From positions 121,089 to 185,088 of the forward strand of contig JAHIRB010000007.1 of the NCBI GenBank assembly GCA_018818885.1: a stretch of 64,000 bases of DNA. The letters run 5' to 3'. Numbering within the stretch: the stretch's first letter is position 1; the number at the start of each line of letters is the position of its first letter. This stretch comes from Patescibacteria group bacterium. Lineage in GTDB: Bacteria > Patescibacteriota > Patescibacteriia > Buchananbacterales > SURF-54. The notes beneath the pieces were generated by a model, which was not told where the DNA came from, did no database searches, and saw nothing but the letters and a program-made list of their open reading frames with translations. Positions 11,921-38,713 of this stretch are shown here, one piece after another. A program made the translations under genes and the position numbers.

Positions 11921-13269
11921 TTTTTCTTAACTAAATGAATCAAAAATTTTGGATTTAAAAAATATGCTTTTCCATACTTTTTTTTATACTTATAATGCCT
12001 AAGTACCATAAGCGCTCTTTTGGGACTATATCTAACTCCAATCCTGCCTGCATATTTTTCGATATTCTCCCAGCTAAATTTCTTATCTGGATTTAGTTCT
12101 TTTAGTTTTTGATAAAGCTTTGTACCAGGGTACGGAATAGCTGGATTGAAATTTTTGACCTTTAGATCGTGGTCTAATATAAAATTAACTGTTTCTTGAA
12201 TCGTTTCTTTGTCTTCTCCAGGACAATTGATTAAAACGTAATAACCCACATCAATCTTGTTTTCTCTTAATATATATATTGCTTGTTTAAGATCTTTTTG
12301 TGTAGTTTTTTTATTGATGTTTTCTAAAATTTGATCTGATGCTGATTCTAGACCAATATTAATTTTAAAGCATCCAGCTTTTTTTATTTTTTCAATTATA
12401 TCTTGATTTCTGACGATATCTGTGGCTCTGGCATTACAACCCCAACTAATCTTGATTTCGTTATTAATTAATAAATCGCTAATTTTTTCCACCCGAGGTA
12501 TGTCAACTAAATATTCCCAATCTTGAAAATAAATTGATTTAATACCAAAATTTATTATCAGATACTCAATTTCAATGAGTACTCGTTCTGGACTTTGGCT
12601 GATATAATTACCTTCTGACATTGCTTTAAGGCAAAACGTACATGAATAAGGGCAACCTCGTGAAGTCATCATAATAGAAAAAGGATCTTTAAAGCCTGAC
12701 GCATGATATTTTTCCATTGGCAATAATTCGTATGCTGGTAAAGGCAATGCATCTAAATCGTTTATTCTTCCTGCTTGAGAGTTGTGAATTATTTTTTTAT
12801 CTTGTTTAAAGGATATACCTTTGACATCAACTAACTGACCTTTTGCAGATAAATTGTCGACAGTTTCCTCCACAATTTTTTCTGGCTCACCCTTAACCAC
12901 AATATCAGCTTTAGACTTATTGAAAATCCAGTCAGGATCCACTGTGCCATGGCTCCCTGTGATTATCTTGTGCTTAGCTTTTGTAGCATCTAAAATTTTA
13001 AAAATATTATTAATATGAGAATTAGGACACTCCCACCTATCTATTGGCGTAGTTGTTAAAATTAAAACTTCTGACTCAAATTCATTAATAGAATCAATAG
13101 TTTTTTGTACAGTATAATTTAAAACATTAGCATCTAAAAATCTGATCTCGTGACCCTTATCCTGCAGAATTGCTGCAATCGTAGCTAAAGAAAGAGGCTG
13201 ACGTGCGCGTACGTTCATGACTGACCTTCTTTCTATGTTAAAATTTGGATTTAAGATAAATATCTTCAT
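11917..13269 (-). CDS. Cobalamin-binding radical SAM enzyme
   Basis: 450 aa. TSRGCPYSCTFCLK motif. Confidence 0.85.
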   Translation of the reverse strand: MKIFILNPNFNIERRSVMNVRARQPLSLATIAAILQDKGHEIRFLDANVLNYTVQKTIDSINEFESEVLILTTTPIDRWECPNSHINNIFKILDATKAKHKIITGSHGTVDPDWIFNKSKADIVVKGEPEKIVEETVDNLSAKGQLVDVKGISFKQDKKIIHNSQAGRINDLDALPLPAYELLPMEKYHASGFKDPFSIMMTSRGCPYSCTFCLKAMSEGNYISQSPERVLIEIEYLIINFGIKSIYFQDWEYLVDIPRVEKISDLLINNEIKISWGCNARATDIVRNQDIIEKIKKAGCFKINIGLESASDQILENINKKTTQKDLKQAIYILRENKIDVGYYVLINCPGEDKETIQETVNFILDHDLKVKNFNPAIPYPGTKLYQKLKELNPDKKFSWENIEKYAGRIGVRYSPKRALMVLRHYKYKKKYGKAYFLNPKFLIHLVKKK

Positions 13270-13850
13270 TTTTCTAAATATATTACAAAACCTGATGTTT
13301 GGTTTTTTGATTTAAAAATACTATCGATTATTCGTGCTAGGGGAGAAAATACCTTCCGATAAATTTTAATCGGTATTAAATTTACCAGTGTTTCAAATAA
13401 ACCTCTGATATTTTTGATTTCAATGGCAGAAAACTTCTTAAACATATGTTTCGCGCCCTCTTTGGTAAATCGATAATAATCGCCATAATATCCTTTTTCT
13501 GCATGATAAGGATATAAAAAAGGCAAAGAAACTAGACATTTTCCATTTGGCTTTAGAACACGATAAATTTCTGAAACTGCCTTGAATGGATCGTCAATAT
13601 GTTCCAAAACTGCACGACAGATTACTGCGTCAACTGAACTATCATCCAACGGAATATTTTTTATATCACCAACAATATCTGGCTTGTATTCGGAAACAGT
13701 ATCTAATGTTTTATAATCTTTTCCTTGAAATATTTCCTCATACTCCTTCATCCCCTTTTGAAAACGATTGCCTCCTCCTACATCCAATATTGAGTTTGAA
13801 TCTTTGGCAATTAATTTTATTTTTTCATCCCAAAATTTTATCCACATCAT
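13266..13850 (-). CDS. Class I SAM-dependent methyltransferase
   Basis: ILDVGGGNR motif I; acidic post-I residue; 194 aa. Confidence 0.7.
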   Translation of the reverse strand: MMWIKFWDEKIKLIAKDSNSILDVGGGNRFQKGMKEYEEIFQGKDYKTLDTVSEYKPDIVGDIKNIPLDDSSVDAVICRAVLEHIDDPFKAVSEIYRVLKPNGKCLVSLPFLYPYHAEKGYYGDYYRFTKEGAKHMFKKFSAIEIKNIRGLFETLVNLIPIKIYRKVFSPLARIIDSIFKSKNQTSGFVIYLEK

Positions 13851-13940
13851 ACCCGGTAGTGAAAATTTGATTTATTAATCATATATTATTTTTATTACCC
13901 GTTGTGATTTGATATCTTATCAAATTTTCACTACCGGGCA
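13851..13940. repeat. Palindromic leader element, copy 1 (arms CCCGGTAGTGAAAATTTGAT / ATCAAATTTTCACTACCGGG)
   Basis: 20-21-bp inverted arms at 13852-13871 and 13919-13938 flank about 47 bp and abut the start codon at 13850. The same arms recur at 58701-58791. Confidence 0.5.
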
Positions 13941-13942
13941 TA

Positions 13943-15100
13943 TTATTTTATAAAAATTAAAATATTTTTTGCACGTTTTTGCCAAGTGTATTCTTTAACA
14001 TCTAGATATGCATGGCTGACTATACTATTAACCAAATTCTTATCATTTAATAATTTTTTTATACCATCAGAGAGCGCTTTTGGATCATCTGACTTAACCA
14101 AAACTGAATTATCAGTATCTAAGATTTCTCTTATTGATTGCAAGTCTGAAGCTACAACTGGTTTTTTGGCTGCCATATATTCAAATAGTTTCATCGGCGA
14201 GGTATACTTAACCGATATTTGTTTTTCTTTAGAGTTAGGTAATACAACAACGTCAGCTGCCCTTAGAAATATCGGAATCATTGTTGGGCTTTGATGCCTA
14301 ATACTCTTAACGTTTGATAATCCATTTTTATCTATATAATTATTTAAACGTGCTCTATCATGTTCCATACCACCAACAAAAACAATTAATTCTTTATTGG
14401 ATAAATATTTTGCACTTTCAGCTAATGTAAAAACTCCTTTCCATCTAAATAGATGTCCAGTATATAATATAATATTTTTTTCTTGCGAAAAATAATCATA
14501 ATATTTTTCTAAATATTGACGGCATTCTTTCTTTGACTTATCAATATCAAACTGATAAATGCTAACACCGTCAGGGGCTACCATTATCTTACTATCATCT
14601 ATTTCTAATTGATCCACTAGAAGTTTCTTTAATGACTTAGTAATTACTACGATCCTTTTGCACCTCTTAAACAGCATTTTGTATAAAGTAAACTTACTTT
14701 GAGGAAAAGTGTGTAGTTCGAACACAATATTTTTTTTAAATAATGAAAGAAAAAAACTTGAAAACTCATCTCGTGAGTAGATAATATCGGGCTTTTTATT
14801 AGCGAGATATCTCAATGCCGACAATGCAAAGCTTGTGTTTTGAATAGGAACACTCAAACCTTTAAACGATCTACCCATAGCGACAATATCTAAAAGCCAA
14901 AGTTTTTTTATTTCGAACTCATTTTTTATTCCGTAATATTGAAAAGGCTTAATATGTTCAAGTTGATTATCTTTTCTGTTTGCTACTACTAACTCAACAT
15001 CAACACCTTGATTTTTAAAAGCTTCACACATCTTCATAATCTGCAACCCATGTGCTTTTTCTGTCGGGATTCTCGCGTTGGCTAAATATATAATTTTCAT
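13943..15100 (-). CDS. Glycosyltransferase family 4
   Basis: 385-aa GT-B. C-terminal nucleotide-sugar-binding region (LPNSKEKQISVKYTSPMKLFEYMAAKKPVVAS). Confidence 0.65.
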   Translation of the reverse strand: MKIIYLANARIPTEKAHGLQIMKMCEAFKNQGVDVELVVANRKDNQLEHIKPFQYYGIKNEFEIKKLWLLDIVAMGRSFKGLSVPIQNTSFALSALRYLANKKPDIIYSRDEFSSFFLSLFKKNIVFELHTFPQSKFTLYKMLFKRCKRIVVITKSLKKLLVDQLEIDDSKIMVAPDGVSIYQFDIDKSKKECRQYLEKYYDYFSQEKNIILYTGHLFRWKGVFTLAESAKYLSNKELIVFVGGMEHDRARLNNYIDKNGLSNVKSIRHQSPTMIPIFLRAADVVVLPNSKEKQISVKYTSPMKLFEYMAAKKPVVASDLQSIREILDTDNSVLVKSDDPKALSDGIKKLLNDKNLVNSIVSHAYLDVKEYTWQKRAKNILIFIK

Positions 15101-15105
15101 AAATA

Positions 15106-16149
15106 CTATATGGTTTGTTTTATTATGTTGACTAGTTCCTGACCTAATATTTTTGGCTGAAATCTTTGCTGATATAATTCATGACCACTAGCAGCGATTT
15201 TATTTCTAAGGTCAGGGTTATCTTTTAATTTCATGACTTTATCCGCTAAATCTTGAGGGTCTGCAGTTTTACAGAATAAGACGTTCTCTGCATTTTCTAA
15301 AATTTCCTTAGTAGCAGTTGATTCTGAAGTTATCAAAGGTTTTTTGCATGCCAAGCTTTCAAAAATTTTATTCGGTATAACTAAATCTTTTTTAGGTGTG
15401 TTTCCAAACACTCCTAAGCAAATATCAGCATTATTGATTAATGTATTCAATTCTTCTTGAGAAACCTCGTTATGAAAAACTACATTTTGTAATCCTTGGC
15501 TTTCTACTTTTTGTTTAATCTTTTCATATCTGCTAGTAAAGCGTGTGACAATTTGCCATTTGATATATTCATTTTTCAAAATATTTGCTGCCTCAATAAC
15601 ATACTCTATTCCGTGAAAAGGTACTAAATAACCATGAAAATGAACAATAAACTTGCTATCCTTTTTTTCTTTTGGATAAAAATACTTATTATCTGCGCCT
15701 GCATAAATCTTTTTGAATTTATCTTTTGGTAAATTGAAAGTTTTTACAAAATAATCAATGTGCGCTTGTGTATCTAACAAAACTACATCAGCTAGCTGGC
15801 ACGAAATTTTATCTCTAAAATAATCAAACTTTGCTTTTAAACTGCTCTGGCTATATCGTTTGCGATCAAAAACATTTGTGTTGTACAAAGAAACAAAAGC
15901 ATCAAATATTATTTTCTTTTTGCAAATTAACTTTGCCCAAGGCATTATTCCTTGACCCAAAAATCCTACAACAACTACATCATGTTCTTTTATCTTTTTA
16001 TATTTAGAATATAACTCCCAATATTTTTTAAAACCTTTAGCTCTGGAATTGCATTCAATTACTTCCACGCCATTAGCTTCTAAGCCCTGTATCAATATAT
16101 TATTTCTTGGATACCTCTTACTGTATATTCCAAAATAACAAACCTTCAT
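15106..16149 (-). CDS. Glycosyltransferase (GT-B, GT4-like)
   Basis: 347-aa GT-B-like (ESLACKKPLITSE...). Confidence 0.55.
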   Translation of the reverse strand: MKVCYFGIYSKRYPRNNILIQGLEANGVEVIECNSRAKGFKKYWELYSKYKKIKEHDVVVVGFLGQGIMPWAKLICKKKIIFDAFVSLYNTNVFDRKRYSQSSLKAKFDYFRDKISCQLADVVLLDTQAHIDYFVKTFNLPKDKFKKIYAGADNKYFYPKEKKDSKFIVHFHGYLVPFHGIEYVIEAANILKNEYIKWQIVTRFTSRYEKIKQKVESQGLQNVVFHNEVSQEELNTLINNADICLGVFGNTPKKDLVIPNKIFESLACKKPLITSESTATKEILENAENVLFCKTADPQDLADKVMKLKDNPDLRNKIAASGHELYQQRFQPKILGQELVNIIKQTI

Positions 16150-16155
16150 AGTTAC

Positions 16156-16235
16156 AAATTACGAATTAATACGAATATACGAATAGTATAAATCTCGCAT
16201 TTGTAGATTTGTATGGATTCGTAATTCGTAATTTA
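16156..16235. repeat. TACGAAT / ATTCGTA inverted-repeat cluster, copy 1
   Basis: GTTACAAATTACGAATTAATACGAATATACGAAT ... GGATTCGTAATTCGTAATT. The same organisation recurs at 33384-33455, including the GTTACAAAT core. Confidence 0.45.
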
Positions 16236-16961
16236 TCATATTTTTTTTATATTCTTTAACTTTCTTAATAAGTGTACTATCTTAGCAAACACTGCCCCAT
16301 ACTTATAATCAATATAATAAACTTCTGACCCTGTTTTTAAATTATATTTTCCGCTTGCAGTGTTATGAATAAGTTCAGCTACCTTCTTAGGATCAACCCC
16401 GTCTTGCGGTCCCATTTTAGTCTTGGTTCCAGGTGGCGCCACTAAATAGACTTTTCTGTCCGACAATTCTTTGGCTAAAGCCTTGGTAAAAGCACGCAGA
16501 CCAAATTTTGTTACACAATATGTGGTAAATTTTCTTTGAGCGAAAAGTCCAAGAATACTTCCAATATTAATTATGGTTTCTTTGATGTTTGGCAGTAATA
16601 ATTTTGTCAGCTTGATTGTGCCTAGCAGATTTGTTTGAATTTGTTTTTCAATATCTTCGATACTTGTATCTGCAAAGTTACTAATGACTATATTAGCGGC
16701 ATTATTTATTAAAATGTCAGTTTGATTAATCTTATGTGAAAAATTTTCTATACTTTGATGATTTGTTAAATCAAGATGATGCAATTCTACTTTCTTTGCT
16801 CCTAGCTCTAAACATTTTGCTTTGACCGCTTGGCCTTCTTGCTCGTTTTCGTAATAAGTCAATATCAAATTAGCCCCATCTTTTGCCATTAGATAGCCAG
16901 TTTGTTCTCCGATTCCAGAGTTAGCTCCAGTGATGATGATTGTTTTATTTTGCAGTGACAT
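16236..16961 (-). CDS. Short-chain dehydrogenase/reductase (SDR)
   Basis: TGANSGIGEQ glycine-rich NAD(P)-binding motif; 241 aa. Confidence 0.75.
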   Translation of the reverse strand: MSLQNKTIIITGANSGIGEQTGYLMAKDGANLILTYYENEQEGQAVKAKCLELGAKKVELHHLDLTNHQSIENFSHKINQTDILINNAANIVISNFADTSIEDIEKQIQTNLLGTIKLTKLLLPNIKETIINIGSILGLFAQRKFTTYCVTKFGLRAFTKALAKELSDRKVYLVAPPGTKTKMGPQDGVDPKKVAELIHNTASGKYNLKTGSEVYYIDYKYGAVFAKIVHLLRKLKNIKKI

Positions 16962-29461: not shown

Positions 29462-32400
29462 TTATGAGGTGATTGCAGCACTAGAAGTTGCTTGTAATTT
29501 ACCACCGTTTTTCTTAGGCAACAAGTATCCATTGGTCCATTGAAGGGTTCTGGATGCTGTTGTAGATGATAAATTTTGTGTGACTGTTAGGTCACCCCAG
29601 ATAAAGTCTGCTTCACCTGTGCTAGCCTCTAAACCAGCAGTGGCATCATCAAGCTGTAGCATTGCTGCTGAATTTGGAATAACATCTGCAGCAGCTCCGT
29701 CACCAAGTAATGACACGCTAATAGATCCGTCGCCAGCTGAACAACTCTTATTGTCGTCGTTAGAGCTTGAACAATCTACTGTAGCTCTAAGAGTAAATGT
29801 TGTTTCAGTACCAGCAGCAACTCTATAAGGGACTACATCGTCTCTATTTGAATCAGGAGCTGTTCCGTCATCAGTAAAGAGGAATGATGCTATACCTTGA
29901 CCGCTTAAGTCACTAGCACCTGAATTTGGATATAAATCCCAAGTGGTAGTAGCAGCTACTGTTTCAGTTCCATCATAGAGATAAGGAGAAGAAACTGTAG
30001 AAACGGATGTTGCGAACAAGAAGCTTAACTTGTACAAGGCAATGTCACCTGCACTATCAGCTCTTACTGTTAATTTGTACAAATCGGTAACAGCTTGTCC
30101 AGAAGGCATACTTCCAGCAATTCCTGTGGTTTGTTCGTCTTCTGGTGTGATTGTAGGCACACTCTTGTAGACATAGTAGGAATTGAATGTTGGTACTTGT
30201 CCAAGAGTTACATCAGTACCTGATTCAGCACCTTTTGCATTTACATCTCCAACAGCATTAATCTTTAGCTGGAATCCTTGGCCAGAACTTCCCTTTGATC
30301 CGTTCTTTGCATCAACGTTAGATGTGTCTACTTTAAAGGTGTAGTCAGTACTTACGCTGTGTGGAACTACCAATGGATTACTAGTCATTTCTAGTAATTG
30401 AGTTACATTGGTTCCATCAGTAGCAGATGGCGTTCTTTGTTTAACTAATGTACTTCCATCATACAAGTATAACGAATCAATTTGATCCCAACCGCCAGAA
30501 TTAACTGCAGCGGCAGTAACATAGATAGATTCTATGTTAATGTCTTCGTACATTGCATCTGCTGTCATAACACCTACAGTAATACCATCAGTATTTCTTG
30601 GTAGTAATCCTGATTTAGGATTTGCAGCAGCTTTAACTAGTTCTAAGGTTCCAACTGCTACAATTGTTTGTGCAGTACCATGGCTCTGGATATAAGTTGG
30701 AGTAACGGTATTTCCAGTTGATGCGCCAGTAGCACTAACTGCGCCGTCTGCAATACCCATTTGGAATATGTCATCAGCTGCAGCGGAAGAATCAACATTT
30801 GCCTTACCTGTTAAGGTAACTTGTGTTCCTTTTGTAACAACTAATGTTTCCGACAAAGTATGAGTGGAAGTTGCAGGATTGGCATTACCTGCTAAGCCAG
30901 AAGTAGCGTCACTAGTAATTTCTAACAAATCATCACCATTGTAAAGTTCAATGTTTGATAACAAGTTAGTAAAACCAGTTGTTGAATCTACACGAACACC
31001 AATTTGTGAGACTCTAATATCTTCTGAAGATGCAGAAGCATCTAAGACGATATTAACAAAAGTATGTCCCAAAGTTCCGGCTACAATGGTTTGAACAATT
31101 GGATCTGGTGTAATGCTTACAGTTAAAGTGCCTGCTTTTACAGTATTGATAACTGATGACTGAACAGTAGCAGGTGTAGCAGTAACGGAATCTCCACTGA
31201 CTTCACCAGTTGCTGTAATCTGAGCAGGTACAACTTGCACTTGTATAGTGTCATTAAGATCAATATCAGTATTTACATCACCTTTAACAGTGTAAATGTT
31301 TTCTCCTACTGGAACTGTAATAGTATCAGTAGTGGTAGCACTTGCGTGATATACAGTTGTTGATTCAACAGTTTCGGTAGTACCTAGATCTTGTGGTCCA
31401 GCTACAACATTACCATCTGGATCGTAAATAGTTAGATTGGTAATATCTGTAGTACTTGAACCACTACCAGCAGTAGCTTGGGTTAATTTCACAATCCAAC
31501 CAATTGCTGTGATTTCTATTGGTTCACCTTTGGCAGTAAGCTTAAATGAACCTAATGTTTCTTGAGTTGAACCTTCACCAATATTTATTGTGCCAGTAGC
31601 ACTTGGAGCAACTTTTAATGTTCCTTGGCCAATGGTGTGTGCAGTACCATTAATTACAGGAGATGCTGCATTAGCACCACTGCCTGCAGTTAATGTAACG
31701 TAAACTGAATGATCTGCATCCCAAACTAAAATATCAGTAAAGTTTTTGATGTGTAAGTCTATGGTTCGAGTTGTTCCACCTGCAGCATCACCTCTGGCCA
31801 TATAAGATCTATTTTGTCCAGAAGTAATTGTTGGTTCAGATCCTTCAGCAAATGAATGGAAAACCTCTTTATTATCCATAGCAGATGTTTGCAACACTGC
31901 ACCATTTTGATCAACTAAGTCTATATTTTCTACATCAGAATCACCTGCAGAACCGTTTTGTGTCCATTTAATCTGTTTAACCTTTAACCCTGATGGGTTT
32001 GTGCTACTAGAACTGGAATTAGTAATCTTAACTTCTGTGAAATTAACATTTTCTTTTCCAATTTCTGGTGCACTGTCAGTTGATGGATTAGATGGGCCAG
32101 TACCTAAAGTACCAGCAGCAATAGTAACAGTTGCATTTAAGTTCTGGTAGTTACCAGTAATTGGCAAGGTACCAATTAACGAAGCACCAGCTTTTAAGGT
32201 CATGGATGCTAATGTTAGTGATGGAACTTCTCCAGCATAGCTAGCCATAAGTGCAAGTGTTGTCATGTTACCTGTTAAAGCCAATCTTTTAGTAGAACCA
32301 GCAGTAACTGTTACATCATCGTTCAAGGTTGATTGATGAGTAGCATTCAAACTTTTGTTAAGTCCAATTTGCTGGTTTGTTGTTCTGTCGATAACAGCGA

Positions 32401-33166
32401 TAGATGCGAAAGCACCGTCTTGTGCAACAGCACCGGTTCTTTCTATTACCATTGAATCAATGGTGATATCGCCATCGCTGGAAGCAGTACAATCAACATA
32501 AGTGAATGGGAATCTAGCTGCACCTGCTAAGGCAAGGCCACTAGCTGGTGTGTCTGCAGCTAAAGAACATGTTAATGATGTTCCAGAGCCTGACATAGAT
32601 AAATTCTTATCATCATTTATGCTGGTAGCGGCTGCTTTTACAGCATCGACGTCAAAGGCTGAAGCAGCTCCAATATTATCACCTGTGCCATAGTTTCCAA
32701 CATTAGAAACTACTACAGGTATGATCATACTTTCCCAATTAGCACCATATAGTGCTTCTGCTATTTCGGCAGAACCAATTTTACGTAGATTTCCACCGGC
32801 ATCAACAGCGTAAACTGCTGAACTAAATACTACCCATGGTACGTCGTTTGTTACTGTTTGAACCAATTTAACACCTGGTTTTGCAGTAACGTTTCCACCG
32901 ATTGGATAACTGTCAATTTCAGCATCACTCAAGGTCATGACTGAATCAAAGTTATCATACCAAGTAAAAAATTCTCGGTCAGCTGGGAAAGTGTACAATT
33001 TACCATCAGCGCCTAAGTAGAATACAGCAGATAAACCTGCTTTCTTAACCACATCGCCTGATTCTGCAGCAACTACGCTGAGAGGCATTGCGAATAGGCC
33101 AATTGACCATATAATTGTGGTCAATACAACGCTAACAGTAAAGGCTTTCTTAATAAATTTCGACAT
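29462..33166 (-). CDS. Large secreted Thr/Ser/Gly/Ala-rich cell-surface protein (S-layer/adhesin-like), 1234 aa
   Basis: N-terminal signal peptide (MSKFIKKAFTVSVVLTTIIWSIGLFAMPLSVVAAES). Low-complexity beta-rich repeats and many N-x-S/T sequons. GC-richer codon usage, which follows from Ala/Gly/Thr content. Confidence 0.7.
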   Translation of the reverse strand: MSKFIKKAFTVSVVLTTIIWSIGLFAMPLSVVAAESGDVVKKAGLSAVFYLGADGKLYTFPADREFFTWYDNFDSVMTLSDAEIDSYPIGGNVTAKPGVKLVQTVTNDVPWVVFSSAVYAVDAGGNLRKIGSAEIAEALYGANWESMIIPVVVSNVGNYGTGDNIGAASAFDVDAVKAAATSINDDKNLSMSGSGTSLTCSLAADTPASGLALAGAARFPFTYVDCTASSDGDITIDSMVIERTGAVAQDGAFASIAVIDRTTNQQIGLNKSLNATHQSTLNDDVTVTAGSTKRLALTGNMTTLALMASYAGEVPSLTLASMTLKAGASLIGTLPITGNYQNLNATVTIAAGTLGTGPSNPSTDSAPEIGKENVNFTEVKITNSSSSSTNPSGLKVKQIKWTQNGSAGDSDVENIDLVDQNGAVLQTSAMDNKEVFHSFAEGSEPTITSGQNRSYMARGDAAGGTTRTIDLHIKNFTDILVWDADHSVYVTLTAGSGANAASPVINGTAHTIGQGTLKVAPSATGTINIGEGSTQETLGSFKLTAKGEPIEITAIGWIVKLTQATAGSGSSTTDITNLTIYDPDGNVVAGPQDLGTTETVESTTVYHASATTTDTITVPVGENIYTVKGDVNTDIDLNDTIQVQVVPAQITATGEVSGDSVTATPATVQSSVINTVKAGTLTVSITPDPIVQTIVAGTLGHTFVNIVLDASASSEDIRVSQIGVRVDSTTGFTNLLSNIELYNGDDLLEITSDATSGLAGNANPATSTHTLSETLVVTKGTQVTLTGKANVDSSAAADDIFQMGIADGAVSATGASTGNTVTPTYIQSHGTAQTIVAVGTLELVKAAANPKSGLLPRNTDGITVGVMTADAMYEDINIESIYVTAAAVNSGGWDQIDSLYLYDGSTLVKQRTPSATDGTNVTQLLEMTSNPLVVPHSVSTDYTFKVDTSNVDAKNGSKGSSGQGFQLKINAVGDVNAKGAESGTDVTLGQVPTFNSYYVYKSVPTITPEDEQTTGIAGSMPSGQAVTDLYKLTVRADSAGDIALYKLSFLFATSVSTVSSPYLYDGTETVAATTTWDLYPNSGASDLSGQGIASFLFTDDGTAPDSNRDDVVPYRVAAGTETTFTLRATVDCSSSNDDNKSCSAGDGSISVSLLGDGAAADVIPNSAAMLQLDDATAGLEASTGEADFIWGDLTVTQNLSSTTASRTLQWTNGYLLPKKNGGKLQATSSAAITS

Positions 33167-33383: not shown

Positions 33384-33455
33384 TTACGAATTACGAATCC
33401 GTTACAAATATTACAGTAATGATTCATAATATTCGTAATTAATTCGTAATTAATG
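33384..33455. repeat. TACGAAT / ATTCGTA inverted-repeat cluster, copy 2, in the 464-bp leader of the surface-protein gene
   Basis: CTTACGAATTACGAATCCGTTACAAATATTACAG ... ATTCGTAATTAATTCGTAATT. Confidence 0.45.
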
Positions 33456-36284: not shown

Positions 36285-37316
36285 ATGCAGAAAAGCCGAA
36301 AGGATGCAGTGGAAATTCTAGCAAATCTTATGAGATTGCAATCAGATTTTATTTTTGATGCATTGAAAAATAGAAACTATCAACAAATTTTGATTCCTAA
36401 AAGATCTGGCGATGTAAGAAAATTGCACGCACCCGGTGAAGAGTTAAAACTTGTACAGGAAGTAATCCTACAATTTCTTTACCGATGGAAAGTCGATGCA
36501 CGTCAGTTTGGTTTCGTGTTAGGCGGTTCACCAATCAGGAATGCAAAATATCACATTAGAAATGAATTTTACGTTCCGCACTGGGTTCTAAAGCTTGATT
36601 TGGAAAACGCGTTTCCATCAGTTACTTCAACTGTTCTTAGGAAGGAGTACACCCGAGTATTTAACCCAGAAACATTCAAGGAGCTATCAGGAATAGACGA
36701 AAAACAATTTACTGCATTCATCCAACTGATGCTTGATTTAACAACTTACCGAGAGCGACTACCTCAAGGGTCGCCTTGTTCTCCCTACTTGTTGAATTTG
36801 GTATTAGTCTGGACAGGTGTAACAAAAGGTGTTTTGGAGTATTGTGAAAAAAAAGGACTACGTGCTTCCTTGTATGGTGATGATTTCACTATATCTGCCA
36901 AAACAAGTAACATGTGGTTTTCTAAGACATTCTTTAGAAAAATCAATTCAGCGGTTTCACGTAGTGGGTGTCTCAGACTAAATCACGACAAGACTCATCT
37001 AATATGCAGCAGAAACTCCGCGCCAATAATTACTGGCGTAAAAATTACCGAAAGCCACGACAATGGAGCAAAATTAACTCTCACCCAGAGCACACTAAAT
37101 CATTGGAGAGGAGTGATTCATCGAGTTACAGAAATTCTCTACTGGAATAATCGCCTACCAAGGCTGGAACAAGACGGCGTAACATTCAACCAAGCACTCG
37201 GTTATGTCAATTGGATTGAAGATGTCTATAGAGAAAGTGAGGTTCCGCTATCGGTTAGAAAACCAATTAAAAGTTTTAAAGTGCAATCATCAAGATTCGA
37301 TCGTAGGAGAGGTTAG
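36285..37316 (+). CDS. Retron-type reverse transcriptase
   Basis: RT motifs ILIPKRSGDVRKLHAP (1), LDLENAF (2), LPQGSPCSPYLLNLVL (QGxxxSP), LYGDDFTI (YxDD), LNHDKTHL. Retron hallmarks FGFVLGGSPIRNAKYH (NAxxH) and IITGVKI (xTG). AAGGAGG RBS at 36271-36277. No maturase or endonuclease domain. Confidence 0.8.
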   Translation: MQKSRKDAVEILANLMRLQSDFIFDALKNRNYQQILIPKRSGDVRKLHAPGEELKLVQEVILQFLYRWKVDARQFGFVLGGSPIRNAKYHIRNEFYVPHWVLKLDLENAFPSVTSTVLRKEYTRVFNPETFKELSGIDEKQFTAFIQLMLDLTTYRERLPQGSPCSPYLLNLVLVWTGVTKGVLEYCEKKGLRASLYGDDFTISAKTSNMWFSKTFFRKINSAVSRSGCLRLNHDKTHLICSRNSAPIITGVKITESHDNGAKLTLTQSTLNHWRGVIHRVTEILYWNNRLPRLEQDGVTFNQALGYVNWIEDVYRESEVPLSVRKPIKSFKVQSSRFDRRRG

Positions 37317-37398: not shown

Positions 37399-37932
37399 CT
37401 ACGCTGCCAACAACTTGACTGAGGGCATTTCACTTATCACGCTGAGTGTTTTTTGCACCTCCTCAGACTCAAGGGGTACTTCTACCCCAAAGCGTAATAT
37501 GTGTCTTCTTTTTCTCTGTGAATGAACGATTACTAAATTGACTTCTTGATCTTTGAATATATTGGCGATATCAGCCAATATTCCCGGCTTGTCTTCCACA
37601 ATCTCTACTGCGATTGAACACTCGGCTGAAAGATCGACCATGAGCTCGTTGAGGTTTTCGCAAAGCTCGAAGGCTTCAACAACCTGTTTGTGCCCCAGGT
37701 ATTCAACTCCGAAATTGAAGTACTCAATAAACTCGCTTTGATCCCCTGTTTTGATCATTCGCTCGATGATCTCTTTAAATCGCTGAGCTTCCTCTATGAG
37801 AATTTCGAGCATTTTGATACTGCCAGGATTTGCTGTTTGGATATCTGCGTAGAGCAAAGCGTCCTGGGCGGAAATCCTCCCGGTTGCAACATTCATTAGC
37901 CGATATATTGGATTTGAAAGCTTGTCGGCCAA
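37399..37932 (-). CDS. ACT-domain-containing protein (start uncertain)
   Basis: C-terminal ACT-like segment (AVEIVEDKPGILADIANIFKDQEVNLVIVHS). Overlaps the 3' end of the next minus-strand ORF, so one of the two start/stop calls is wrong. Confidence 0.45.
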   Translation of the reverse strand: MADKLSNPIYRLMNVATGRISAQDALLYADIQTANPGSIKMLEILIEEAQRFKEIIERMIKTGDQSEFIEYFNFGVEYLGHKQVVEAFELCENLNELMVDLSAECSIAVEIVEDKPGILADIANIFKDQEVNLVIVHSQRKRRHILRFGVEVPLESEEVQKTLSVISEMPSVKLLAA

Positions 37933-38233
37933 ACCAGGATCCCAACCATACTATCAGAATTATGGAAAAGCATATTATTGAAAATATGCCTACAAGTGAT
38001 GGTAGGTTGCTTGCCATACCAATGGATAGAAACAATATCCAAAGAAACACACACATGGCTGTTATGGCCGTTGCACCGAACCAGTAACTGTTCCAGTTAT
38101 CATCCAGCCTGTCTGAGGTATACCTGGAAAGTGGAATTTCTTCTTGCGCTGATTTCTTCGAATTACTTTTTTGCTTTCTCATCTCTATTGCTCCTTGTTT
38201 TTGAATTAGCGTTAAATCAATTACAGCTTTCAA
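37775..38233 (-). CDS. Hypothetical small membrane protein (2 TM); boundaries uncertain
   Basis: TM segments (ITAMCVFLWILFLSI, IFSIICFSIILIVWL). C-terminal third overlaps the ACT ORF in another frame. Confidence 0.3.
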   Translation of the reverse strand: MKAVIDLTLIQKQGAIEMRKQKSNSKKSAQEEIPLSRYTSDRLDDNWNSYWFGATAITAMCVFLWILFLSIGMASNLPSLVGIFSIICFSIILIVWLGSWFGRQAFKSNISANECCNREDFRPGRFALRRYPNSKSWQYQNARNSHRGSSAI

Positions 38234-38239
38234 TAACCA

Positions 38240-38713
38240 CTATTCCAGACCCAAAATAAAGCTGATGATCTTTCCTATTACAGCAAGTATTGGCCAGAGT
38301 ATGTGTATCCAAATCCACGGAACAATTACAAATATTAACCATGCAAGCAAGGCAAGGAATATATAGCCAAAAATAAAGATTGGCCAAAATATTACAGACA
38401 ATGCTTTTCCCGCTTTATATTCCCAATCTTTTATATCTTCTTTTTCATATCTTACGATATTACTGTCTTTTTCATTTAGTAGAAATGCTAAGTCGTCTGG
38501 GAAAGGAGAAATTTTATCTAATATATTTAAACAAAATATATGTGGCTTCAGGATAAGCCAATCGTTTACGTCACCCATGGTTAATAATCTTCCAATCGCA
38601 ATGTAAATTATAATTGCGAGAAGTAAATTACATTTTGTGATCAGAGGTTTTAGTTTTAACATTTCAATTTTGATTTTCATATCCATTTCCTTTTTAATGA
38701 CGCGCTGACACAA
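38240..38713 (-). CDS. Hypothetical membrane protein
   Basis: 157 aa with 3-4 predicted TM helices; AT-rich like the host genome. Confidence 0.45.
   Translation of the reverse strand: MCQRVIKKEMDMKIKIEMLKLKPLITKCNLLLAIIIYIAIGRLLTMGDVNDWLILKPHIFCLNILDKISPFPDDLAFLLNEKDSNIVRYEKEDIKDWEYKAGKALSVIFWPIFIFGYIFLALLAWLIFVIVPWIWIHILWPILAVIGKIISFILGLE

What the first reader, a model, noticed from the sequence alone, without database searches (positions are those of the whole stretch)
13851..13940. Conserved about 90-bp palindromic leader element abutting start codons (copies at 13851-13940 and 58701-58791; variant at 27211-27330)
Two copies share near-identical 20-21-bp inverted arms (CCCGGTAGTGAAAATTTGAT / ATCAAATTTTCACTACCGGG and ACCCTGTAGTAAAAATTTGAT / ATCAAATTTTCACTACAGGG). 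The total length is the same but the central 47 bp are unrelated. Each begins one nucleotide after the start codon of a minus-strand gene (13850 and 58700), so on the mRNA the element ends exactly at the ATG. A third, more divergent palindrome (ATCCGGTAGTAGTCCCGTAAAT...ATTACGGGATCACTACC) abuts the start codon at 27210 in the same way and shares TTATTAATCATA with copy 1. This looks like a regulatory or translation-initiation leader structure, or a MITE-like element that targets start codons.
Basis: seen in the sequence. Interest (0 to 1): 0.55.

Follow-up and report, generated by a model that had tools for sequence, protein, structure and literature searches.

The report
Start-codon-hugging miniature transposon in Patescibacteria
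The 90-bp palindromes are copies of a small, non-coding mobile DNA element (a MITE) found in many Candidate Phyla Radiation bacteria. It nearly always lands on the sequence TATG at the very start of a gene, duplicating the start codon, and I found no published description of it.

Summary
The window holds three related palindromic elements: 13852-13938, 58702-58790 and the variant 27212-27330. Each ends 1 nt upstream of the ATG of a minus-strand gene.

- **Other genomes:** the same 20-bp arms occur in diverse Patescibacteria metagenome-assembled genomes and metagenome contigs. I catalogued 44 elements of 59-222 bp in several sub-families.
- **Duplications:** 26 of the 44 have exact 4-bp flanking repeats (chance 0.7% per element).
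- **Start codons:** 22 of 23 TATG-flanked elements abut an ATG-led ORF, 21 of them of at least 67 aa.
- **Empty sites:** syntenic loci in relatives lack the insertion, both for two window copies and for two ribosomal-operon copies.
- **Other signs of mobility:** nested insertions, and one family-A element, seen in three related contigs, that carries a tRNA-Gly gene.

Verdict: a non-autonomous transposable element (MITE) superfamily, with its transposase not found. All families keep the terminus CCCNGTAG and a tandem A·C/G·U mismatch in mid-stem, which hints at a folded-strand function. How essential genes are translated behind a -33 to -37 kcal/mol hairpin in this Shine-Dalgarno-poor (SD-poor) genome is open. 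It is a new variant of a known kind, of moderate to high interest.

The parts
13852..13938 (.). Element copy 1 (family A), 87 bp. Arms 13852-13871 CCCGGTAGTGAAAATTTGAT and 13919-13938 ATCAAATTTTCACTACCGGG, with a 47-nt AT-rich centre.
   Evidence: The RNA fold on the mRNA strand is -36.8 kcal/mol, z -7.7.
13848..13851 (.). Target-site duplication of copy 1 (CATA), repeated at 13939-13942. The left copy contains the ATG (13848-13850 on the minus strand) of the methyltransferase gene.
   Evidence: The empty orthologous site in L071/L072 reads TAAaaaatATG with no element.
13939..13942 (.). Second copy of the CATA duplication. On the mRNA it is an upstream AUG that opens a 20-codon short ORF, MPGSENLIRYQITTGNKNNI*, ending inside the element.
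13266..13850 (-). Downstream gene of copy 1, a class I SAM-dependent methyltransferase of 194 aa.
13943..15100 (-). Upstream gene of copy 1, a GT4 glycosyltransferase. Its stop codon lies 4 nt from the element, counted on the mRNA.
58702..58790 (.). Element copy 2 (family A), 89 bp. Arms 58702-58721 CCCTGTAGTAAAAATTTGAT and 58771-58790 ATCAAATTTTCACTACAGGG, with a 49-nt centre.
   Evidence: The RNA fold is -33.2 kcal/mol, z -6.8.
58697..58701 (.). 5-bp target-site duplication of copy 2 (TCATA), repeated at 58791-58795. It contains the ATG of the 67-aa membrane-protein gene 58497..58700.
58791..58795 (.). Second copy of the TCATA duplication.
58497..58700 (-). Downstream gene of copy 2, encoding a small hydrophobic protein of 67 aa.
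27212..27330 (.). Variant element (family C), 119 bp. Left arm TCCGGTAGTAGTCCCGTAAA and right arm ATTACGGGATCACTACCTTA, with one terminus decayed. The same inner-arm family occurs at L022:5218-5321.
27208..27211 (.). Target-site duplication of the variant (CATA), repeated at 27331-27334. It contains the ATG of the nucleotide-sugar dehydrogenase gene 25948..27210.
   Evidence: The syntenic loci L077 and L078 lack the element at this ATG.
27331..27334 (.). Second copy of the variant's CATA duplication.

Best explanation
The palindromes are copies of a non-autonomous transposable element: a MITE or, where it carries cargo, a mobile insertion cassette. The superfamily is spread through Patescibacteria (Candidate Phyla Radiation, CPR).

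**Anatomy (shown).** Each copy has 20-bp terminal inverted repeats.
- The outer 8 nt, CCCNGTAG, are shared by all families.
- The inner 9 nt are specific to each family.
- The centre is variable and non-coding, 19-102 nt in simple copies.

**Insertion (shown in its outcome, inferred in its enzyme).** Insertion makes a staggered 4-5 bp cut that is repaired into a target-site duplication. The preferred target is TATG, or TATGA where a stop codon and a start codon overlap. The duplication therefore regenerates the start codon next to the gene and leaves a second ATG upstream of the element. The enzyme is inferred to be a trans-acting DDE-type transposase. It was not found. The CC termini and 4-5 bp duplication recall the IS1380 family, but that comparison comes from memory only.

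**Tolerance at start codons (inferred).** In this Shine-Dalgarno-poor (SD-poor) genome, with tightly packed or leaderless-type genes, the upstream ATG copy keeps the native initiation context. It opens a short ORF that starts MP(G/R)S(E/R)NLI. In 11 of the 15 start-codon cases examined this ORF stops inside the element or overlaps the true ATG. Translating it would melt the hairpin, or RNase III would cut the 20-bp stem, which would free the true AUG.

**Shown:** anatomy, duplications, empty sites, nesting, distribution and the association with start codons.
**Inferred:** the type of enzyme, and all consequences at the RNA level.
For: 1. **Inverted repeats and direct-repeat flanks** are present at all three window copies.
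2. **The same arms occur in unrelated Patescibacteria.** They are in a Doudnabacteria genome, a Jorgensenbacteria genome and an unclassified Patescibacteria genome, all metagenome-assembled. They are also in 56 metagenome stretches, about 37 of them clearly element-bearing; the rest are solo arms, many probably chance.
3. **Duplications:** 26 of 44 catalogued elements have exact 4-bp flanking direct repeats, against a null of 0.0074 per element (binomial about 4e-44). Five more have 5-bp repeats (listings).
4. **Empty orthologous sites:**
   - The rpsM-rpsK and rpsK-rpsD junctions of three relatives, in four contigs, lack the two elements seen in L022.
   - The glycosyltransferase-methyltransferase junction in L071/L072 (methyltransferase 84% identical) lacks window copy 1.
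   - The dehydrogenase start in L077 and L078 lacks the window variant.
5. **Nested insertions** of one element inside another.
6. **Cargo:** a tRNA-Gly(CCC) gene between the arms, with duplication CTTG.
7. **No coding capacity, no Rfam family**.
8. **Start-codon association:** 22 of 23 TATG-flanked elements sit exactly 1 nt from the ATG of an ORF. 21 of these ORFs are at least 67 aa and one is 38 aa. They include rpsK, rpsD, rplO, parA, gpmI and aminoacyl-tRNA synthetase genes. Only about 25% of non-coding TATG/CATA sites are predicted start codons.
Against: - **No transposase or autonomous element was found.**
   - No arm pairs 0.3-6 kb apart flank an ORF.
   - No transposase lies beside solo arms.
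   - No transposase domain appears in 30 ORFs scanned with Pfam.
- **The arms are more conserved than a decaying selfish element predicts.**
   - The orthologous ParA-site copies in L063 and L065 keep 19/20 arm identity, with a compensatory change at position 4.
   - Their centres have diverged and ParA itself is only 70% identical.
- **Every family keeps a tandem A·C/G·U mismatch at arm positions 10-11**. A plain double-stranded inverted-repeat model does not predict this.
- **The start-codon bias is stronger than TATG preference plus removal of in-gene insertions would give**.
- **An unrelated palindrome family in the window (16151-16235) has the same TATGA flanks**. The target may therefore reflect selection rather than enzyme specificity.
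- **Ascertainment bias:** public copies were found by exact match to one arm.
Confidence: 0.85

Rival explanations
1. The element is an exapted functional RNA or single-strand hairpin module. It is mobile in origin, but the host now maintains the 20-bp stem with its central tandem A·C/G·U wobble. Possible roles are an RNase III processing site, a 5' or intercistronic mRNA stabiliser, or a device coupling translation of the gene to the upstream short ORF. This adds to the MITE explanation and does not replace it.
For: - The arms are 92% paired across families, and 14 of 20 pairs show compensatory changes.
- The mismatch is kept: pair 10 is unpaired in 22 of 25 sequences, mostly A·C, and pair 11 is G·U in 20 of 25.
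- In L060 the mismatch is shifted by one position but still present.
- Orthologous ParA-site copies keep their arms with a compensatory change at position 4, while the centres diverge.
- The hairpins are very stable and sequester the region just upstream of AUG, yet they sit in front of essential genes.
- The genome is SD-poor, with 5 of 56 genes showing an SD-like motif.
- The short ORF from the duplicated ATG reads through the 5' arm in its only stop-free frame.
Against: - Terminal inverted repeats covary under a pure transposase-binding model too, so covariation does not discriminate.
- The two arm types occur in either order relative to the gene, with roughly a 10:3 bias that is not significant.
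- Relatives do well without the element at the same junctions.
- Gene conversion between copies, or repeated independent insertion at the same TATG, could also keep the arms intact.
- No transcript data are available.
Confidence: 0.3
2. The element is a fixed cis-regulatory leader, such as a riboswitch-like element, an attenuator, a protein-binding operator or a translation-initiation structure. On this view it evolved in place upstream of particular genes and is not mobile.
For: It abuts start codons and forms a strong hairpin.
Against: - It has target-site duplications.
- The same junctions are empty in relatives.
- It lies in front of functionally unrelated genes.
- Copies are nested and one family-A element carries a tRNA.
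- The centres are unrelated.
- It matches no Rfam family.
Confidence: 0.03
3. The element is of the REP/REPIN type, mobilised by a RAYT (HUH Y1) transposase, with the conserved GTAG acting as the REP 'head'.
For: GTAG is invariant in all arms. The inverted doublet with a less conserved spacer, and a total size of about 60-140 bp, resemble REPINs (comparison from memory).
Against: - The flanking duplications are not expected for HUH single-strand transposition.
- Individual arms are not self-complementary hairpins; only AAATTT is palindromic.
- GTAG lies inside the long stem, not at the foot of a hairpin of its own.
- No Y1 transposase was seen in 20 window ORFs.
Confidence: 0.05
4. The element is a promoter or terminator cassette: an intergenic hairpin acting as an intrinsic terminator for the upstream gene, an outward promoter for the downstream gene, or both.
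For: It lies between genes, and its stem base is GC-rich.
Against: - No terminator-like site was found, and promoter-like hits are at the shuffle level.
- The 12 nt before the ATG (CTACTACNGGGT) match a -10 box poorly (my reading).
- No U-tract follows the stem in the direction of the gene.
Confidence: 0.03

Closest known systems
Bacterial MITEs in general, and mobile insertion cassettes that carry cargo (comparison from memory)
   Same: - Size of 59-222 bp.
- Terminal inverted repeats.
- Short target-site duplication.
- No transposase gene.
- Many dispersed copies.
- Presence or absence at orthologous sites.
- Nesting.
- Occasional passenger gene (a tRNA-Gly).
   Different: - The host clade is Patescibacteria (CPR); two literature searches found no description.
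- The 4-5 bp duplication strongly prefers TATG(A), and insertion is almost always on a start codon.
- A tandem A·C/G·U asymmetry in the arms is conserved.
- No parent insertion sequence (IS) is known.
Correia elements (CREE/NEMIS) of Neisseria (from memory)
   Same: - MITEs of about 100-150 bp with long inverted repeats.
- They sit next to genes and are co-transcribed with them.
- Their hairpins are RNase III substrates that affect mRNA fate.
- The transposase was long unknown.

This is the best model for how the present elements might work at the RNA level.
   Different: - Correia elements duplicate TA and have 26-bp repeats of unrelated sequence.
- They carry promoter and IHF sites.
- They are not tied to start codons.
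- RNase III cleavage is untested for the present elements.
IS1380 family insertion sequences and their eukaryotic relatives, piggyBac (from memory)
   Same: Termini beginning CC(C) and a 4-5 bp target-site duplication. PiggyBac has CCC...GGG ends and a 4-bp duplication.
   Different: - No IS1380-type transposase or autonomous copy with these termini was found.
- The target here is TATG, TTGA or CTTG, not TTAA.
- The link is a lead, not a tested membership.
REP/REPIN elements with RAYT transposases (from memory)
   Same: Conserved GTAG, an inverted doublet forming a long hairpin, an intergenic location and high copy number.
   Different: The present elements have target-site duplications, the arms are not themselves palindromic, and no RAYT gene was seen.

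Membership tests
MITE (miniature inverted-repeat transposable element) | Small (under about 500 bp), non-coding | tested here: met
   Elements are 59-222 bp. They contain only short ORFs of accidental kind.
MITE | Terminal inverted repeats | tested here: met
   20-bp arms that are 92% paired across 25 distinct arm pairs.
MITE | Target-site duplication of fixed length | tested here: met
   26 of 44 elements have exact 4-bp direct repeats and 5 more have 5-bp repeats. The null is 0.0074 per element.
MITE | Multiple dispersed copies within and between genomes | tested here: met
   3 copies in the 64-kb window. 4 contigs of one metagenome-assembled genome carry it, as do other Patescibacteria genomes. 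The arm pattern matches 56 metagenome stretches, about 37 of them clearly element-bearing.
MITE | Insertion polymorphism (empty orthologous sites) | tested here: met
   rpsK and rpsD junctions; window copy 1; window variant.
MITE | A related autonomous IS with the same termini that encodes the transposase | tested here: inconclusive
   None was found in about 400 kb of fetched loci or in the window. The public-collection scans were limited to one arm pattern each.
IS1380-derived element | CC termini and a 4-5 bp duplication (family hallmarks recalled from memory) | tested here: met
   Termini are CCCN...NGGG and duplications are 4-5 bp. The family definition itself was not verified; one search gave no such data.
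IS1380-derived element | An IS1380-type DDE transposase recognising these ends | tested here: inconclusive
   No transposase was found.
REP/REPIN-RAYT | Each unit is a GTAG head followed by its own imperfect palindrome, with no target duplication | tested here: not met
   The arms are not self-complementary (sequence), and duplications are present.
REP/REPIN-RAYT | An associated RAYT (Y1 HUH) gene | tested here: inconclusive
   None among 20 window ORFs scanned with Pfam. The rest of the genome was not available.
Correia/CREE | TA duplication, the characteristic 26-bp repeats, and a Neisseria host | tested here: not met
   Duplications are TATG, TTGA or CTTG, the arms are different, and the host is Patescibacteria.
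Integron attC site | R''/R' core sites RYYYAAC...GTTRRRY and an integron cassette context | tested here: not met
   The termini are CCCNGTAG...CTACNGGG. The contexts are ribosomal, aminoacyl-tRNA synthetase and polysaccharide operons.
Intrinsic terminator or sigma-70 promoter | A short GC-rich stem followed by a U-tract, or -35/-10 boxes placed to drive the gene | tested here: not met
   0 terminator-like sites were found, and promoter-like hits are at the shuffle level.
Any curated RNA family (Rfam 15) | A score at or above the family's gathering threshold | tested here: not met
   Searches find nothing except the tRNA and tmRNA genes. Searches give only generic miRNA-type hairpin hits, at most 30 bits against thresholds of 45-211.

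The most novel reading that the evidence does not exclude
The superfamily is not just selfish DNA. On this reading it is a mobile RNA-processing or translation-coupling module that is characteristic of SD-poor Patescibacteria.

- It is directed to gene boundaries: T|ATG start codons, TTGAC -35 boxes, the position just upstream of an SD (one tRNA-carrying element), and the CCA end of tmRNA (one insertion).
- Its 20-bp helix, with the conserved tandem A·C/G·U, is recognised in a folded strand.
- Recognition would be by RNase III, which would leave near-leaderless mRNAs, or by a structure-specific transposase.
- As a result, essential genes stay expressed, and operons become punctuated by processing sites.
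Probability: 0.2. Interest if true: 0.8.

Novelty: new variant of a known kind. Interest (0 to 1): 0.6.

Why it matters
**Mobile elements in CPR.** Patescibacteria (CPR) genomes are small. From memory, they are regarded as poor in mobile elements. A widespread MITE superfamily that sits 1 nt from the start codons of ribosomal-protein, parA and aminoacyl-tRNA synthetase genes shows two things: these genomes do carry active repeats, and translation initiation there tolerates a very stable hairpin directly upstream of AUG, or exploits it.

**Annotation.**
- The elements duplicate start codons and create spurious upstream ATGs and short ORFs.
- They could lead gene callers to place starts wrongly.
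- They are convenient markers for strain-level insertion polymorphism in metagenomes.

**Tools and mechanism.** If start codons are actively targeted, the unknown transposase would be a rare case of a tool specific to gene boundaries. If the hairpin is processed, it offers a way into RNA processing and SD-independent initiation in an uncultured phylum.

Tried and rejected
- **Outward promoter or terminator in the arms.** The consensus scans are at shuffle level and find no terminators. The last 12 nt before the ATG do not resemble a -10 box.
- **Known RNA family.** Rfam at gathering thresholds, and permissive scans, find nothing specific.
- **Hunt for the parent element.**
   - ORFs next to solo arms include no recognisable transposase.
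   - Arm pairs 0.3-6 kb apart are only noise.
   - Pfam finds no transposase in 20 window ORFs and 10 ORFs of the element-rich genome JAHJUH01.
   - A scan of viral contigs gave one solitary arm, probably chance.
- **Literature.**
   - Searches on MITEs in Patescibacteria or CPR found nothing relevant.
   - Searches on IS1380 gave no data on ends or duplications.
   - The IS1380 lead therefore rests on memory.
- **Similarity between the centres of the window copies.** It is not above shuffled controls.
- **Different families at the same orthologous gene start.** I checked whether elements of different families in L027 and L005 sit at the same orthologous gene start, which would be evidence for repeated targeting. 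The two genes are unrelated.
- **Hits outside Patescibacteria.** The genome-collection hits L006 (Parachlamydiaceae) and L008 are single arms inside apparent coding sequence with no partner arm. I treated them as chance.

Full report
**1. The observation**

- At 13852-13938, two perfectly complementary 20-nt arms, CCCGGTAGTGAAAATTTGAT and ATCAAATTTTCACTACCGGG, enclose 47 nt.
- At 58702-58790, arms complementary at 19 of 20 positions enclose 49 nt.
- The ORFs 13266..13850 and 58497..58700 (minus strand) begin 1 nt from the elements. The upstream genes 13943..15100 and 58799..59164 end 4 and 8 nt beyond them.
- The variant at 27212-27330 has arms TCCGGTAGTAGTCCCGTAAA and ATTACGGGATCACTACCTTA and abuts the ATG of 25948..27210.

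A scan for this architecture looked for GTAG...CTAC with at least 15 of 20 complementary arm positions, 30-300 nt apart. It finds exactly these three sites in 64 kb, against 0.17 in shuffles. The two centres are no more similar than shuffled sequence, and the shared 12-mer TTATTAATCATA is within the null.

- CATA at 13848-51 and 13939-42.
- TCATA at 58697-701 and 58791-95.
- CATA at 27208-11 and 27331-34.

**2. Context**

The window is part of a 200-kb metagenome contig (ENA ERZ27247128) from a bacterium that NCBI labels 'Patescibacteria group bacterium'. It has 32% G+C.

Copy 1 and the variant lie in a long minus-strand operon of glycosyltransferases, radical-SAM enzymes and methyltransferases. 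Only 5 of 56 genes have a Shine-Dalgarno-like (SD-like) motif, and most intergenic spacers are a few AT-rich bases. Pfam finds no transposase among 20 ORFs scanned. Rfam finds nothing in the window.

**3. The element elsewhere**

An exact scan for the arm in one genome per species hit Patescibacteria of different lineages and G+C content:
- four contigs of one unclassified metagenome-assembled genome;
- a Doudnabacteria genome;
- a Jorgensenbacteria genome.

It also gave two solitary arms in apparent coding sequence, which I treat as chance. A metagenome scan gave 56 stretches. About 37 of them are clearly element-bearing. The rest are solo arms, many probably chance.

After pairing arms I catalogued 34 family-A elements of 59-142 bp and 10 elements of sister families. 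All families share the outer CCCNGTAG...CTACNGGG. Their inner 9 bp differ but remain complementary, for example AAATTTGAT, AATTTTGAA, TCCCGTAAA, TCCCTCACT and AACTTGGAC. The window variant belongs to the TCCCGTAA family, which also occurs at L022:5218-5321.

**4. Evidence that it is mobile**

1. *Target-site duplications.* 26 of 44 elements have identical 4-bp flanks, where chance gives 0.74% per element (binomial about 4e-44). Five more have 5-bp repeats, TATGA or CGCAG.
2. *Empty sites.*
   - In L022, two elements precede rpsK and rpsD. Three relatives with S4 70-73% identical have 7-21-nt AT-rich spacers at both junctions. Deleting the element and one repeat from L022 recreates that arrangement.
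   - For window copy 1, the syntenic glycosyltransferase-methyltransferase junction in L071/L072 (methyltransferase 84% identical) reads ...TAAaaaatATG... with nearly identical flanks and no element.
   - For the variant, the syntenic loci L077 and L078 keep the upstream TTGACG-N17-TATAAT promoter but have no element at the ATG.
   - The same strain in another sample (L076) is occupied.
3. *Nesting.* Family A occurs inside family B, with duplication TTCA, and one element lies inside another in L027.
4. *Cargo.* In L050, L055 and L051 the arms enclose a 72-nt tRNA-Gly(CCC) gene. Where both flanks are visible (L050, L055) the duplication is CTTG.

These results meet every structural criterion for a MITE except a known parent.

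**5. Where it lands**

The duplications fall into a few classes:

| Duplication | Count | Note |
|---|---|---|
| TATG/CATA | 16 exact | plus TATGA and degraded versions |
| TTGA/TCAA | 4 | right flanks read TTGACA, TTGACT or TTGATT, like a -35 box |
| CTTG/CAAG | 3 | one directly precedes GGAGG |
| TGAA/TTCA | 2 | nested inside family-B elements |
| TGGA | 1 | exactly after the CCA end of a tmRNA gene |

Of 23 TATG-type elements, 22 sit exactly 1 nt from an ATG that opens an ORF. 21 of these ORFs are at least 67 aa. One is 38 aa, at L060:4701-4844. The ORFs include rpsK, rpsD, rplO, parA, gpmI, tatD-like, aminoacyl-tRNA synthetase and thioredoxin-reductase-like genes.

In 209 kb of the same loci, crude ORF calls classify the TATG/CATA sites as 69% coding, 8% predicted start codons and 23% other non-coding. 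Even if every in-gene insertion is removed by selection, only about 25% of the remaining sites are start codons.

The bias is therefore real, but my data cannot separate enzymatic targeting from selection. An unrelated 85-bp palindrome in the window (16151-16235, ATTACGAAT repeats) is also flanked by TATGA...TATGA at a stop/start overlap. That favours a shared filter or a shared integration route.

**6. Sequence context of the target genes**

The genes hit are of two kinds:
- Genes tightly coupled to an upstream gene, whose stop lies 0-13 nt away or overlaps as ATGA.
- Genes with a -10 box 5-6 nt from the ATG. TATAAT-N6-ATG is perfect at three loci and 5 of 6 at five more. This suggests leaderless transcription, which is my inference.

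In both kinds initiation does not depend on an upstream SD.

After insertion, the upstream copy of ATG keeps that context. It reads through the 5' arm in the arm's only stop-free frame, ATG CCC NGT AGT RRA AAT TTG AT..., encoding MP(G/R)S(E/R)NLI. In 11 of the 15 start-codon cases examined this short ORF stops 28-108 nt before the true ATG, or overlaps it in L013.

**7. Structure**

On the mRNA strand the window copies fold at -36.8 kcal/mol (z -7.7) and -33.2 kcal/mol (z -6.8). The variant folds at -28.2 kcal/mol (z -2.7). In the minimum-free-energy fold of copy 1 the stem also draws in part of the duplicated TATG.

Across 25 distinct arm pairs, 92% of cells pair and 14 of 20 pairs show changes on both sides. 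Position 4 alternates between G-C, C-G and U-A.

Position 10 is unpaired in 22 of 25, mostly A·C, and position 11 is G·U in 20 of 25. This arises because one arm reads ...GTAGTAG... and the other ...GTAGTGA.... Family B has AGA versus AAG. One element, L060:4701-4844, has the A·C moved to the other side of the G·U.

Covariation alone is expected for transposon ends. A tandem transition-type mismatch kept in every family is not an obvious prediction of double-stranded repeat recognition, and it hints that a folded strand (RNA or single-stranded DNA) matters.

The ParA-site copies in L063 and L065 point the same way. ParA is 70% identical and the coding DNA about 70% identical. The arms are 19/20 identical with the compensatory position-4 change. 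The centres have diverged apart from a few arm-adjacent bases. Independent insertion at the same TATG, or gene conversion between copies, are alternatives.

**8. What I rejected**

- No terminator-like site was found, and promoter-like matches are at shuffle level.
- No Rfam family matches; only generic hairpin hits far below threshold appear.
- attC cores are absent.
- The arms are not self-palindromic REP units, and the duplications argue against HUH-type insertion.
- No autonomous element or transposase was found.
- Literature searches found no description of such an element in Patescibacteria.

**9. Most likely mechanism**

Shown:
- A non-autonomous element with conserved 20-bp termini.
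- Insertion with a 4-5 bp duplication, overwhelmingly at TATG(A) on start codons.
- Absence from the same sites in relatives.

Inferred:
- A trans-acting DDE-type transposase makes a 4-5 bp staggered cut. The CC termini and duplication length recall IS1380 (and piggyBac), from memory only.
- Insertions persist at start codons because the duplication regenerates the ATG, and for TATGA also the upstream stop codon.
- The retained upstream ATG lets ribosomes enter and melt the hairpin, or RNase III cuts the two-turn stem, as is known for Neisseria Correia elements (from memory).

The RNA-level steps are untested.

**10. Verdict**

The finding is real. To my knowledge, and by the searches I could run, the family is undescribed.

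It is a new variant of a known kind: a MITE superfamily in CPR bacteria with unusual specificity for gene boundaries and a conserved stem irregularity.

Caveats:
- Public copies were ascertained by exact match to one arm.
- Gene starts are ORF-based.
- All the data are metagenomic.
- The transposase is missing.

Noticed in passing
window 16151-16235 (flanks 16146-16150 and 16236-16240); also 33389-33451: A different imperfect palindrome of about 85 bp, built of ATTACGAAT/ATTCGTAAT repeats, fills the gap between genes 16236..16961 and 15106..16149. It is flanked by TATGA...TATGA, the same start/stop-overlap target as the GTAG elements, but its termini are unrelated. A similar palindrome lies at 33389-33451.
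   Followed up: partly
window 36285-37316 (+), with 37400-38713 and 29462-33166: A reverse-transcriptase ORF (PF00078) with a strong AAGGAGG SD sits in an otherwise SD-poor genome. Next to it are a 40% G+C stretch of overlapping TTG-start ORFs and a 1234-aa ORF with no Pfam hit. This may be a diversity-generating retroelement.
   Followed up: no
whole window: Only 5 of 56 genes have an SD-like motif within 18 nt of the start. Most spacers within operons are a few AT-rich bases or overlaps, which suggests largely SD-independent initiation.
   Followed up: partly
L050:1263-1387, L055:2386-2510, L051:2-98: Family-A arms enclose a complete tRNA-Gly(CCC) gene. In L050 and L055 the unit is flanked by CTTG...CTTG and sits directly upstream of a GGAGG SD. 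This is a tRNA-carrying mobile cassette.
   Followed up: partly
L009:351-428 and L029:3896-3973: An element is inserted exactly after the CCA 3' end of the tmRNA gene. The duplication TGGA is the reverse complement of the terminal TCCA.
   Followed up: partly
P0010, P0017, P0024, P0034, P0051, P0106 (S4 homologues): Several Patescibacteria S4 proteins are called with N-terminal extensions of 11-20 aa, such as MVAGRKNQDEF..., ahead of the conserved MAK/MGK start. These may be mis-called starts inside other inserts at the rpsD start codon.
   Followed up: no
L063:1510-1570, L065:1099-1160, L027 (rc) upstream of 2033: A perfect TATAAT lies exactly 6 nt upstream of the pre-insertion ATG, and a TTGNNN box lies 17 nt further up at L065 and L027. 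This suggests leaderless transcription of parA and other genes in these lineages.
   Followed up: partly
L027:2454-3181: Repeated units of GATCGTAGATTTACT..., in both orientations and of unknown nature.
   Followed up: no
L033, L035, L044, L048 (arm at L033:737-756): A 31-nt collapsed derivative, CCTGGTAGTAAAAATTTGAT-TCAAACTACCA, lies directly upstream of a GGAG SD. It appears to be an internally deleted element that is conserved in four contigs.
   Followed up: no
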